Source: Candidatus Heimdallarchaeota archaeon
GTDB taxonomy: Archaea > Asgardarchaeota > Heimdallarchaeia > Heimdallarchaeales > Heimdallarchaeaceae
Reading direction: 5' to 3'
DNA: 64,000 nucleotides
Assembly (NCBI GenBank): GCA_019057815.1
Contig: JAHLWR010000008.1
Location: 32,001 to 96,000, forward strand
The notes under the pieces are model-generated. The model was not told the DNA's origin, did no database searches, and saw only the letters and a list, made by a program, of their open reading frames with translations. The translations under genes and the position numbers were made by a program. Positions within the stretch are counted from its first letter, which is position 1; each line of letters starts with the position of its first letter. Below are positions 25,189 to 27,548 of the stretch, piece after piece.

Positions 25189-27548
25189 ATGTGGGACAGA
25201 TTCAGTAAACCAAGATTTACCAAACATGCAATCATCATATTTCTTGTGATATTTTTTACTCCTTCTCTTATAATCCCCACCAATGTAGTCACTAATAATC
25301 CTTCGACAAATGAAATAATATTAAATCTAACTAAAACAATCAATCTAGAATTATCTACACCTACGGAACTAGAAAGTTTCTTAGATTCTATAATCCCCGA
25401 ACAGCTGACAAACTATTCCATAGCTGGTGCTACTTTTTCTATGGTTAAAGATGGTTCCATATTTTTTGAGAAAGGATATGGTTATGCTAATTCTGTATAT
25501 AAGTCTCCAGTTGTAGCAAATGAGACTCTTTTCAGGATTGGCTCAATTTCGAAGACATTTACTTCGATTGCAGTTTTACAATTAGTAGAAAAGGGATTAC
25601 TAGATTTAGATACAGATATCAATAGCTATCTTTCTGCATTCAAAATACCGGAAACGTATGAAGAATCTATAACTCTTAGACATTTACTAACTCATACAGC
25701 TGGTTTTGAAAGAGCGGTTTTTACAGTAATTCATGCTTATGGTCATTTAATTGAACCTTTAGAAGATTTATTAGCAGAAGGCATGCCAGATAGAGTCTGA
25801 CTACCTGGTGTAATTTCATCATACTCCAACTACGCACGTTATGATACTTGGTTAAAATTGCCAGAGGCTTTCTAACCGTCGTTTGAAGGGGGTTTCACCC
25901 TTGACCCCTCACGTGCGTTGAGGGGTAGTCACGAAGACTTTTCCATTATAGTTAGTGTATCATCACCACGGAGCTAGCTAGGCTCCCTATTTCATAGATA
26001 GTTAACTGAGGGACAACCACTTGTGTAGTTGCGAAACAGAAAAGTGACGATGATCACACTCTCTCTATCTCTGTATTTTTAGATTCATATATAAACCCGT
26101 AGAAAAAAAAGATTTCATTTTTACTCTTCTTCTACATCGTCATTTATGTAGTTAGAACGCGATGGCAGATTTAGCCAACTTTTCTGCACTCAGTGGACGA
26201 CGGTTTCGCTTTAGCAGGTTATATCGTGCAAGAAGTTTCAGGGAAAGATTTTGAACAATACGTGAGTGATGAAATACTAGCTCCTTTAGGAATGAATTCA
26301 AGCACTTTTTTACAACCTCTCCCAAGCAACCTCAATTCGCAAATGTCTTATGGTCATGATGAAAATAATGTTCCAGGTTTTTTTGAATATATCAGCATCC
26401 CCCCTGCTGGATCAGCTAGCTCTACAGCTTCAGATATGGCTAAATTTATGATTACATTATTAAACAATTGTAGTTATAATGGGAACAAAATCCTGGAGAA
26501 CACTTCAGTAGAAATGATGTTAAGTAACCAATTTCTAACTCATGAAAATCTTGCAGGGATTGGTTTAGGTGTTTATGAATTTGATGTGAGTAATCAACGA
26601 ATAATGGGACATGGTGGTGACACTCACTTCTTTCACAGTCGTATGATGCTGTTTCCTGAACTTAACATAGGTATTTTTGCTTCTTACAATAGTGTAGGTG
26701 GATCTATAGCTAGAACTGAACTTTTTAATGAATTTATAGAAGAATATTATCCTTTTTCCAAAGTGGACATAGAACCACTACAAGGATACAAAGGAAGATC
26801 TCGTAGGTTCACTGGGTTTTATGTCTCATCTAGAAGAATCTATTCCGATAAACCCACAGTTGCTGAAAGAGATTATATTGATGAGAGTTTTACTATAACC
26901 ACAAAAAATGGACATCTAATCTATAATGGCTTTCCTGATTTAGAATTTGTAGAAATTGAGCCAAATTACTTTGTGGAATCTACAGGTGAGTATTATCTTG
27001 AAATTGCTTTTATACAAGATAATAAAGGAAGAATAACCCATTTCTACACTAATTTCATAGGATCTCATTATGCTTTTGAAAAAGCTCATTCGCTCTATTT
27101 CGGATCTGAACTTCAATCAGGATTCATAGCTTCAGTTTTAGCATTAACTTTTATTTCATTAGCCTATTGGGGAATTAAAGGTTTAATTGGAGTTTTCAAG
27201 AAGAAAGAGAAAAATCCAAAAATCCAGAAGATAGCGAGATGGAGTTTTCTAGTTAATTTCATTCTTGCTGCAGTAATAGCTATAATGACTACTTTAAAAA
27301 TAAATAAAGATATTCTGCTTGAAATTGATACTGTCGAAGTTTTCAATGGACTACTTGTTTTTCCATTTTTGTATCTTTTAACTGTAATGGTTCTAATAGT
27401 TTTTACATGGTTTGCATGGACTGGAGTGAAAAACATAGAAGAAAAACCTTACTGGAAATTATCTGGGAGAATACACTACTCAATTCTTGTTCTACTCTCC
27501 ATTATTATGATTGGCATATTTGCATCGTGGCATTTCTATTTATTTTAA
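25189..27548 (+). pseudogene. Membrane-anchored serine hydrolase (beta-lactamase-like), disrupted by an in-frame TGA and a 368-bp insertion
   Basis: 5' part has RIGSISK (SxxK) and LRHLLTHTAG. The frame continues past TGA 25798-25800 as LPGVISSYSNY and resumes at 26202 as GFALAGYIVQEVSG...HGGD with C-terminal TMs. Removing the insertion restores YSNYGFALAG. Confidence 0.9.
25832..26199. mobile_element. Non-autonomous 368-bp insertion element with 3-bp core duplication (ACG), hairpin-rich
   Basis: Precisely interrupts the YSNY/GFAL codons; ACG at 25832-25834 and 26200-26202; higher GC than its surroundings; stems such as ACCCCTCA/TGAGGGGT (25904-25926). Confidence 0.8.

What the first reader, a model, noticed from the sequence alone, without database searches (positions are those of the whole stretch)
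25832..26199. 368-bp non-coding insertion carrying internal complements of its own target site and junctions: candidate RNA-guided (bridge-RNA-like) miniature element
Seen in sequence: the insert splits the empty site CAACT-ACG-GTTTCGC, with ACG present at both ends and no clear terminal inverted repeats. Inside it are exact reverse complements of the left flank (GTAGTTG 26025-26031 vs CAACTAC 25827-25833), the right flank (GCGAAAC 26031-26037 vs GTTTCGC 26203-26209), the left junction (ACGTGCGT 25911-25918, spanning the loop of an 8-bp hairpin, vs 25832-25839) and the right junction (AACCGTCGT 25874-25882 vs 26197-26205). A further hairpin loop contains GGTTTCAC, matching the right flank GGTTTCGC at 7 of 8 positions. 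There are several GC-rich stems and a minus-strand TATA-like TTTATATA (26095-26088) pointing into the structured part. Established knowledge: IS110/IS1111 elements often lack conventional terminal inverted repeats, recombine at a short core, and encode a non-coding RNA whose loops pair with target and donor DNA. Inference: this is a non-autonomous element that keeps only the guide RNA. Weak support: minus-strand 26187-26144 reads AEKLAK/ICHRVLTT with one frameshift, reminiscent of an IS110 transposase C-terminus. The guide orientation does not neatly match the known IS621 layout, so a different mechanism, such as a self-splicing intron with exon-binding guides, remains possible.
Basis: partly seen in the sequence, partly recalled or inferred. 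Interest (0 to 1): 0.82.

Follow-up and report, generated by a model that had tools for sequence, protein, structure and literature searches.

The report
Gene-less IS607 mini-transposon with guide-RNA scaffold
The 368-bp insert is a protein-less offshoot of an IS607 jumping gene in a Heimdall-group Asgard archaeon; it keeps the transposon ends, a promoter-like TATA box and the folded guide-RNA scaffold of a TnpB-type nuclease, a kind of element already known, and is not an IS110 bridge-RNA element or an intron.

Summary
The sequence facts hold: all four reverse-complement matches, ACG at both ends and the empty site are real. A cold-seep metagenome contig from another study carries the uninterrupted gene, skipping exactly these 368 bases.

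The IS110/bridge-RNA reading fails. The genome has 5 full copies, and 24 of 31 genomes of the family hold relatives. In 13 full copies the internal "guides" stay constant while the flanks differ.

The parent is a 2,732-bp IS607 element elsewhere on the contig, with a serine-recombinase TnpA and a 652-aa TnpB/Cas12f-like protein. It shares both ends with the insert.

- The insert lies antisense to the broken beta-lactamase-family gene.
- On its minus strand it has a TATA box and a ~230-nt conserved structured RNA that ends at the transposon right end, as a TnpB omega-RNA does.
- The "left junction" match is its pseudoknot, which has compensatory changes in relatives.
- "ACG at both ends" is the crossover core shared by the target motif ACCGT and the right end.
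- The two flank matches are chance.

This scan has already found the same kind of element in other Asgard genomes. It is a new member of a known kind, of low to moderate interest.

The parts
25832..26199 (-). 368-bp non-autonomous IS607-derived element (MITE). Its own orientation is the minus strand: the left end (LE) is at 26199 and the right end (RE) at 25832. The boundaries are ambiguous by 3 nt (ACG on +, CGT on -).
   Evidence: There are 5 full copies in the genome at 84-89% identity and 13 full copies aligned across genomes. A contig of run X4 skips exactly 25832-26199.
26200..26204 (-). Target / transposon-adjacent motif ACCGT (ACGGT on +). It abuts the LE and belongs to the host gene (codons TAC GGT).
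   Evidence: ACCGT flanks the LE in 12 of 13 MITE copies, with ATCGT in one, and also flanks the full-length parent. Its -3 base covaries with the RE tail in 8 of 8 full elements.
26155..26199 (-). Left end, shared with the IS607 parent. It starts CGTCCACTGAG and includes a subterminal AAAAGTTGGCTAAATCTGCCAT at 26162-26183.
   Evidence: The last 37 nt match the parent LE at 84%. See the alignments. The resemblance to an inverted RE-side word was judged by eye only (15 of 21) and was not reported by the repeat finder.
26088..26111 (-). T-tract followed by TACGGGTTTATATA: a TATA-box-like promoter pointing into the RNA.
   Evidence: It is conserved in all copies. The motif is found upstream of the RNA in 4 of the 5 G000 copies and upstream of another tnpB ORF at C1:42095. 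Promoter function is inferred.
25832..26066 (-). Predicted omega-RNA scaffold, about 230 nt. A 5' domain (26060-25954) has four helices. It is followed by the pseudoknot hairpin, the helix GGUUAGA/UUUAACC (25877-25850) and the 3' tail.
   Evidence: Fold energy is -74.1 kcal/mol, z -4.0. 93.8% of cells are paired against 35-44% when the partners are slid, and 13 pairs have compensatory changes. A 210-nt RNA-library contig from X20 covers 25853-26060, which is only a weak hint.
26014..26039 (-). Helix 3 (CAACUAC/GUGGUUG, 26031-26014) and the 5' strand of helix 2 (CUGUUUCG, 26039-26032).
   Evidence: The two helices are 97.6% and 98.6% paired across 18 sequences, with compensatory changes. The words are invariant in copies with unrelated flanks.
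25905..25925 (-). Hairpin CCCCUCA-ACGCACG-UGAGGGG. Its 7-nt loop pairs with the 3' tail to form a pseudoknot.
   Evidence: The stem is invariant. The loop/tail helix is 99% paired in 15 parent-type sequences, with G-C to A-U (2 sequences) and C-G to U-A (1 sequence) double changes.
25832..25838 (-). 3' tail of the scaffold, CGUGCGU. It is the pseudoknot partner and the last bases of the RE. Its final CGT equals the last three bases of the target motif (crossover core).
25872..25884 (-). In the parent it encodes the last tnpB codons (N D G stop), and it overlaps helix GGUUAGA.
   Evidence: It is near-invariant in MITEs and parents. Its G/A variant does not covary with the target motif: L114 and L116 break the link.
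25812..25831 (-). Predicted guide portion of this copy's omega-RNA (AGUUGGAGUAUGAUGAAAUU). It is host-gene sequence beyond the RE and would match the uninserted allele next to ACCGT.
   Evidence: Inferred from the TnpB omega-RNA layout described in 10.1101/2023.11.20.567912 and PMC10055086. The RE flank differs in every copy.
25189..27548 (+). Interrupted beta-lactamase-family serine hydrolase gene (YSNY|GFALAGY). It also carries an in-frame TGA at 25798-25800.
   Evidence: Both halves match PF00144. Orthologues have AGA/CGA (Arg) at the TGA position. The empty-site contig has C at 25798.

Best explanation
The insert is a miniature, protein-less derivative of an IS607-family insertion sequence of Heimdall-group Asgard archaea.

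Insertion (inferred mechanism). It entered the host gene by serine-recombinase (TnpA) recombination between a circular element junction and the target motif ACCGT. The crossover lay in the shared CGT, so there is no target duplication and no terminal inverted repeat. The element lies antisense to the gene and inactivates it.

What it keeps (shown). It retains about 40 nt of the left end, a TATA-type promoter and a ~230-nt structured RNA on the minus strand. That RNA runs to the right-end boundary and has the layout of a TnpB omega-RNA: a scaffold with a pseudoknot just before the boundary, and a guide supplied by whatever DNA lies beyond it.

Likely function (inferred). The RNA is transcribed and loaded in trans by the 652-aa TnpB-like proteins of the three resident full-size copies. 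It would direct them to the uninserted allele (ACCGT followed by AGTTGGAG...), helping the element persist.

Shown: homology to the parent, the ends, the target motif, the empty site, RNA structure conservation and pseudoknot covariation.
Not shown: transcription, TnpB loading and DNA cleavage.
For: Copies and parent
- The genome has 5 full copies plus fragments, and 24 of 31 genomes of the family have matches.
- The full-length parent at C27:145860-148591 (2,732 bp) begins and ends with the same sequences and sits next to the same ACGGT.
- Its genes are an IS607 transposase (NF033518, 151 bits against a cut-off of 110) and a 652-aa protein. That protein has PF07282 above cut-off, weak TnpB/IS607_TnpB/Cas12f2 matches, and an AlphaFold model (pLDDT 83.7) whose top PDB hits are all Cas12f/TnpB.

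Target and ends
- The target motif ACCGT abuts the left end in 12 of 13 copies, while right-end flanks are unrelated.
- The -3 base of the motif covaries with the -3 base of the right-end tail in 8 of 8 full elements. This matches the core-nucleotide and TAM logic shown for an IS607 element in 10.1101/2023.11.20.567912.

RNA structure
- On the minus strand 93.8% of cells are paired, against 35-44% with slid partners. Thirteen pairs show compensatory change, and the many G-U pairs fix the strand.
- The pseudoknot loop/tail helix shows double changes in relatives.
- A covariance model built from the MITEs hits the 3' ends of the three tnpB genes over their last ~119 nt.

Empty site and host gene
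- A natural empty site is seen in run X4, and both junctions are bridged in run X1.
- The host gene also carries a nonsense codon that is absent from the empty allele and from orthologues.

Precedent
- Protein-less IS605-type elements that encode omega-RNAs for use in trans are described in PMC10055086.
Against: - Transcription is not shown. Only two RNA-library contigs from one study, about 92-93% identical, cover the region, so they come from related copies. One of them also covers the TATA box and continues into a different flank, so DNA carry-over or read-through cannot be excluded.
- The 5' domain of the MITE RNA (about 110 nt) is not recognisable in the parent. Only the last ~95-119 nt are shared, at 83-85% identity. 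Compatibility with the resident TnpB is therefore assumed.
- The TnpB-like family has an invariant His where solved relatives have the RuvC-III catalytic Asp. Nuclease activity is therefore uncertain.
- The only cognate tnpA in this genome has two nonsense codons. Current mobility in this strain is doubtful.
Confidence: 0.88

Rival explanations
1. It is a miniature IS110/IS1111-type element that keeps only a bridge RNA, whose loops pair with target and donor DNA.
For: There are no conventional terminal inverted repeats and a short core is shared at both junctions. In this one copy, internal words are complementary to both flanks, which happens at about 0.1% of random sites.
Against: - The internal words are identical in 13 copies with unrelated flanks.
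- The parent encodes an IS607 serine recombinase and a TnpB-like protein.
- No DEDD_Tnp_IS110 match exists in the 95%-complete genome, while the control genomes gave hits.
- The words are stems of a conserved minus-strand RNA.
Confidence: 0.01
2. It is a self-splicing or enzyme-spliced intron (group I or II, IStron-like, or archaeal bulge-helix-bulge) that is removed from the hydrolase mRNA.
For: Removing the 368 nt restores the reading frame. On the plus strand the upstream exon could end in U and the insert in G, as in group I introns. This was read from the sequence.
Against: - There is no Rfam intron match on either strand at E up to 10.
- The conserved structure, with its G-U pairs, is on the strand antisense to the gene.
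- Of the other four copies, three have no open frame longer than 55 aa through the junction, and the fourth has only a 173-aa frame.
- The host gene has acquired a nonsense codon (CGA to TGA) that is absent from the empty allele and from orthologues, as expected for a dead gene.
- Scarless presence or absence is expected for IS607 without any splicing.
Confidence: 0.02
3. It is an IS607-derived MITE, but the RNA has no function. The conserved sequence would reflect only recent spread and transposase-binding sites, so the element is a passive hitch-hiker.
For: - Copies within the genome are 84-89% identical, and related copies inflate covariation counts (see the tool's caveat).
- The cognate tnpA is broken in this genome.
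- The partner TnpB lacks the canonical RuvC-III Asp.
- Transcription is unproven.
Against: - Copies down to 72% identity in another genus keep 94% of pairs, with 13 pairs changed on both sides.
- The TATA motif is kept in all copies.
- The pseudoknot covaries.
- Several fragments have decayed while full copies keep the RNA part intact.
Confidence: 0.08
4. It is an assembly artefact: a repeat wrongly placed inside the gene.
For: In run X1, Logan contigs break inside the repeat and none spans all 368 bases.
Against: X1 contigs run from unique flank into the element with no differences, 44 nt on the left and 189 nt on the right. The insertion sits precisely at an ACGGT, like every other copy.
Confidence: 0.01

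Closest known systems
IS607-family elements with TnpB and a right-end omega-RNA, for example the Clostridium botulinum IStron studied in 10.1101/2023.11.20.567912
   Same: - A serine-recombinase TnpA in the parent.
- No target duplication.
- A target motif abutting the left end that also serves as the TAM position.
- A right-end scaffold that ends in the same bases as the target motif (here CGT of ACCGT/GCGT; there GG of TGGG/TCGG).
- The guide lies outside the right end.
   Different: - The element has no genes at all and no group I intron.
- The target motif is ACCGT.
- It has its own TATA-type promoter.
- Its extra 5' RNA domain is not recognisable in the parent.
- It is archaeal.
- The partner protein is 652 aa, with His at the RuvC-III Asp position.
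Protein-less PATE-like IS200/IS605 elements that encode omega-RNAs used in trans (PMC10055086)
   Same: It is a non-autonomous element reduced to its ends plus a guide-RNA scaffold, dependent on TnpA and TnpB encoded elsewhere.
   Different: Those elements are moved as single strands by a Y1/HUH transposase that recognises end hairpins. This one derives from a serine-recombinase (IS607) element.
SMN1, the 320-bp non-autonomous element of Sulfolobus islandicus, which depends on the ISC1733 transposase (PMC3718332). That ISC1733 belongs to the IS607 family is from my own knowledge.
   Same: It is an archaeal, ORF-less element of about 320-370 bp mobilised in trans by the transposase of a larger IS.
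   Different: There is no sequence relation, and an RNA role for SMN1 is not described in the paper read. The host phylum also differs.
IS110/IS621 bridge-RNA elements
   Same: A short shared core at both junctions, no classical inverted repeats, and a structured non-coding RNA encoded by the element.
   Different: The recombinase family differs (no DEDD). No loops covary with target or donor. The RNA lies at the right end, with an external guide.

Membership tests
IS607-family non-autonomous derivative (MITE) | Both ends are homologous to those of an element encoding an IS607-type serine recombinase | tested here: met
   The right-end 94 nt match the parent at 83-85% and the left-end 37 nt at 84%. 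The parent TnpA scores 151 bits on NF033518 against a cut-off of 110.
IS607-family non-autonomous derivative (MITE) | No target-site duplication; the same core nucleotides lie at the target and at the right end; scarless empty site | tested here: met
   The empty site is CAACT-ACG-GTTTCGC in orthologues and in the X4 contig. The -3 base of the target motif covaries with the right-end tail in 8 of 8 elements.
IS607-family non-autonomous derivative (MITE) | No protein-coding capacity | tested here: met
   The only ORF is a 57-aa frame that runs out into host sequence. Stop codons lie in the frame that aligns with the tnpB C-terminus.
IS607-family non-autonomous derivative (MITE) | Mobilised in trans by the cognate TnpA | not testable with these tools
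   Multiple insertion sites and a natural empty site show past mobility. The only cognate tnpA in this genome has two nonsense codons.
TnpB omega-RNA (OMEGA guide RNA) | Encoded at the right end on the tnpB strand, with the scaffold ending at the transposon boundary | tested here: met
   The covariance model hits the 3' ends of all three tnpB genes, and the matches end at the boundary. The tnpB stop codon lies about 43 nt from the right end.
TnpB omega-RNA (OMEGA guide RNA) | Conserved secondary structure with a pseudoknot next to the guide | tested here: met
   Comparison with the ISDra2 omega-RNA pseudoknot rests on my recollection of published structures and was not tested.
TnpB omega-RNA (OMEGA guide RNA) | Transcribed, bound by TnpB, and directing DNA cleavage next to the TAM | tested here: inconclusive
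   Only RNA-library contigs of related copies from one study are available. Binding and cleavage cannot be tested here, and the partner has His at the RuvC-III Asp position.
IS110/IS1111 bridge-RNA element | Parent encodes a DEDD (RuvC-like) plus Tnp recombinase | tested here: not met
   PF01548 has no match in the genome, while the controls were positive. The parent encodes an IS607 TnpA.
IS110/IS1111 bridge-RNA element | RNA loops complementary to the target and donor flanks, changing with them | tested here: not met
   The internal words are invariant across 13 copies with different flanks. Anchored flank matches of 5+5 nt occur only in this copy.
Group I/II intron or IStron | Match to an intron covariance model, on the sense strand of the interrupted gene | tested here: not met
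   There is no Rfam intron match at E up to 10. The conserved structure is antisense to the gene. The host gene carries a nonsense codon.

The most novel reading that the evidence does not exclude
The mini-elements may be dispersed, promoter-driven guide-RNA genes for an unusual Heimdallarchaeial TnpB lineage. That lineage is about 650 aa, with an invariant His in place of the RuvC-III Asp. The RNAs carry an extra ~110-nt 5' domain that is absent from the parent's own RNA and is kept by compensatory change across two genera. The domain could give the mini-element an advantage in competing for the protein, or a role other than homing cleavage such as RNA-guided binding or regulation.
Probability: 0.12. 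Interest if true: 0.6.

Novelty: new member of a known kind. Interest (0 to 1): 0.27.

Why it matters
The finding settles a tempting but wrong reading: this is not a bridge-RNA miniature in archaea. It also gives a clean natural example of an IS607-type mini-transposon that keeps a promoter and a guide-RNA scaffold, with filled and empty alleles both present in public data.

For annotation:
- the beta-lactamase-family gene is a pseudogene;
- these repeats should be labelled as IS607-derived elements.

For the field, two modest leads need experiments:
- the three-way link between target motif, right-end tail and pseudoknot loop;
- the His-for-Asp TnpB lineage of Heimdallarchaeia.

Tried and rejected
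- **Rfam scan.** An E-value scan of 25300-26700 on both strands gave only four chance-level hits (E 1.2-5.7) and no intron or known RNA family.
- **Bulge-helix-bulge intron.** I tried by hand to place 4-bp central helices at the four possible boundary registers. None paired, so I dropped the idea without a tool test.
- **Right-end internal word as a target guide.** I tested whether ACGACGGTT covaries with the target motif. One element (G006) suggested it did, but L114 (ACTGT target with ACGG) and L116 (ACCGT target with ACAG) break the link.
- **Origin of the 5' RNA domain.** The covariance model aligns only the last ~119 nt of the parent. BLAST finds only short words, including an exact 13-mer, TGTCCCTCAGTTA, inside the tnpB ORF. 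The origin remains unresolved.
- **Second tnpB at C1.** The tnpB with the same promoter word at C1:42095 does not match the RNA model.
- **Left ends of sister-genus tnpB-only copies.** They could not be found with a left-end motif, so these copies may be truncated.
- **RNA-library contigs.** X19 and X20 are from one study and are contigs only, so they do not show a transcript start, end or strand.
- **Subterminal inverted repeats.** The 15-of-21 repeat seen by eye was not reported by the repeat finder, so I give it little weight.
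Full report
**1. What is in the sequence**

The stretch 25832-26199 interrupts a beta-lactamase-family (PF00144) serine hydrolase gene between ...SYSNY and GFALAGY... The left half matches profile positions 1-107 and the right half 149-313.

So are GGTTTCAC (25891) and the minus-strand TTTATATA (26095-26088).

The empty site is not just an inference:
- Orthologues in a sister genus (73-78% identical) run through this point without interruption (AACTAT/AATTAC-GGTTTTGC).
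- A 344-nt contig from a cold-seep metagenome of a different study (run X4) joins 25831 directly to 26200. It skips 368 bases with 3 ambiguous letters.
- In run X1, which may be the source sample, contigs run without any difference from unique flank into the insert on both sides. The junctions are therefore not an assembly chimera.

**2. It is a repeat, and the internal words do not follow the flanks**

The genome holds five full copies (84-89% identical) and several fragments. Twenty-four of the 31 genomes of the family have matches, including full copies down to 72% identity in another genus.

In an alignment of 13 full copies with flanks:
- every copy starts (window + strand) ACGCACGTT and ends CAGTGGACG;
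- 12 of 13 are followed by ACGGT, and one by ACGAT;
- the DNA on the other side is unrelated between copies.

GTAGTTGCGAAAC, ACGTGCGT and AACCGTCGT are the same in all of them.

Only 5 of the 7 nt of each flank match are true flank. The remainder is element end (AC) or the conserved target motif (GT). Such an anchored 5-nt match occurs at 3.6% and 3.1% of random genomic sites, and both together at 0.1%. The other 12 copies reach only 1-4 nt. With 13 copies and a free choice of pattern, this is a coincidence of one copy, not a guide.

**3. The parent element**

Three loci share the first 82-94 nt of the insert and continue into a 652-aa ORF on the opposite strand. One of them, C27:145860-148591 (2,732 bp, outside the window), also ends with the insert's other end and the same ACGGT flank.

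Its two genes are:
- an IS607-family serine-recombinase transposase (NF033518, E 2e-44, above cut-off; Resolvase and MerR domains);
- a 652-aa protein with the Cas12f1-like TNB domain above cut-off and weak TnpB, IS607_TnpB and Cas12f2 matches over its last 180 residues.

An AlphaFold model built with 33 homologues (pLDDT 83.7) finds only Cas12f, TnpB and other Cas12 structures at the top of the PDB search, at E about 1e-8. Homologues are numerous and carry NCBI names from Candidatus Heimdallarchaeota and Heimdallarchaeaceae.

No DEDD/IS110 transposase domain exists in this 95%-complete genome, although the same search hits control genomes.

The insert is therefore a deletion derivative of an IS607 element. 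In the element's own orientation (window minus strand) the left end is at 26199 and the right end at 25832.

**4. The ends and "ACG at both ends"**

Read on the minus strand, every copy is ...ACCGT | CGTCCACTG ... AACGTGCGT | variable. The last three bases of the target motif (CGT) equal the last three of the right end. That is why the boundaries are ambiguous by 3 nt and why no duplication is seen.

In eight full-length elements from several genomes, the -3 base of the flanking motif always matches the -3 base of the right-end tail: ACCGT with ...GCGT six times, and ACTGT with ...GTGT twice.

This is the behaviour described for an IS607 element studied experimentally. There, TnpA needs matching core nucleotides at both ends. 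The target motif abutting the left end is also the motif read by TnpB. The RNA scaffold ends in bases resembling that motif (10.1101/2023.11.20.567912). That the crossover here lies within CGT is an inference.

**5. The RNA**

On the minus strand a T-tract and TACGGGTTTATATA (26111-26088) precede about 230 nt that fold well (-74.1 kcal/mol, z -4.0).

On an alignment of 18 MITE-type sequences from nine genomes, my proposed structure is 93.8% paired, against 35-44% when the partners are slid. It has 13 pairs with changes on both sides, against 2-5 when slid. The frequent G-U pairs would be A-C on the other strand, so the structure belongs to the minus strand, antisense to the host gene.

- **GTAGTTG** is the 5' strand of hairpin CAACUAC/GUGGUUG.
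- **GCGAAAC** lies in helix CUGUUUCG/UGAAAUAG.
- **ACGTGCGT** is the 7-nt loop of hairpin CCCCUCA...UGAGGGG, which pairs with the last seven bases of the right end to form a pseudoknot.
- **GGTTTCAC** belongs to a small extra hairpin that only this genus has.

In the MITE set the pseudoknot is invariant. In 15 parent-type right ends it is 99% paired and shows G-C to A-U in two sequences, C-G to U-A in one, and several G-U changes.

The fourth match, AACCGTCGT, is the complement of AAACGACGGUUAG. In the parent this encodes the last tnpB codons and stop, and it overlaps helix GGUUAGA/UUUAACC. Its G/A variant does not follow the target motif. I have no specific function for it.

A covariance model built from the MITEs finds the 3' ends of all three tnpB genes, but only over their last ~119 nt. 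The 5' domain of the MITE RNA is therefore specific to the mini-elements, or has diverged beyond recognition.

**6. Expression**

Two metatranscriptome runs from one study contain contigs about 92-93% identical to the element. One, of 210 nt, covers 25853-26060 and begins at the first base of the outer helix. The other covers 25832-26106 and continues into a different flank. These are contigs of related copies and cannot show starts, ends or strand. I count them only as a weak hint.

**7. State of the host gene and of the system in this genome**

- The hydrolase gene also has TGA at 25798-25800, where orthologues have AGA/CGA. The empty-site contig has C at 25798, giving CGA. It is a pseudogene, which argues against any splicing of the insert.
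- Three of the other four copies lie where no frame longer than 55 aa crosses the junction.
- The single cognate tnpA in this genome has TGG to TGA at codon 11 and a second early stop. The same-genus genome G001 has an intact 209-aa frame. The family may be immobile in this strain.
- The three 652-aa genes are open. However, the whole family has His where CnCas12f1, OsCas12f and a solved TnpB have the RuvC-III Asp (NTHxNAA against NADxNAA). The RuvC-I Asp (D434) and RuvC-II Glu (E533) positions are invariant. Whether this protein cuts DNA is open.

**8. Comparison and verdict**

The element works like the protein-less IS200/IS605 derivatives that carry omega-RNAs for use in trans (PMC10055086). 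It also resembles archaeal mini-elements that depend on a larger IS, such as SMN1 with ISC1733 (PMC3718332). Its parentage is IS607.

It fails both defining tests for an IS110 bridge-RNA element and the tests for an intron.

Earlier follow-ups in this scan reached the same conclusion for similar inserts in other Asgard genomes. I re-derived it here independently. It is a new member of a known kind. What remains open is the role of the extra 5' RNA domain and the activity of the His-bearing TnpB lineage.

Noticed in passing
window 25798-25800: There is an in-frame TGA in the interrupted hydrolase gene, where orthologues have AGA/CGA (Arg) and the empty-site contig of run X4 has CGA. It is a second lesion in the same gene.
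   Followed up: yes
L031:659-1204 (G000:C27, outside the window): The only cognate IS607 tnpA of this genome has TGG to TGA at codon 11 (MLVRIGIAAE*WGVS...) and a stop five codons before the normal end. G001:C184 has an intact 209-aa frame.
   Followed up: yes
L031:1294-3249 (652-aa TnpB-like protein), residues 616-624: The whole Heimdallarchaeial family (33 aligned members) has an invariant His (NTHxNAAxNI) at the position of the RuvC-III catalytic Asp of solved Cas12f/TnpB (NADxNAAxNI). D434 and E533 are invariant. Whether the enzyme is active, altered or nuclease-dead is unknown.
   Followed up: partly
window 26001-26013 (minus strand) and the parent tnpB ORF (L031, about 1.1 kb before the right end): The conserved single-stranded GUCCCUCAGUUA of the MITE RNA is an exact 13-mer inside the parent tnpB coding region, where it encodes SVPQL. 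It may be a trace of the origin of the 5' RNA domain, or chance.
   Followed up: partly
L033:2734-2913 (G000:C21:23633-23812): A fragment of the MITE RNA's 5' domain sits directly upstream of one tnpB-only copy. This looks like a nested or hybrid arrangement.
   Followed up: no
L070 (G000:C1:39500-42130): A second, ~430-aa open frame, taken to be another tnpB but not scanned against any protein family, is preceded by nearly the same promoter word (TACGGGTTTTTATA). It does not match the MITE RNA model.
   Followed up: partly
L115 (G027:C15:30300-31550): A tnpA match ends only about 35 nt before a right-end match. This may be a tnpA-only IS607 variant without tnpB.
   Followed up: no
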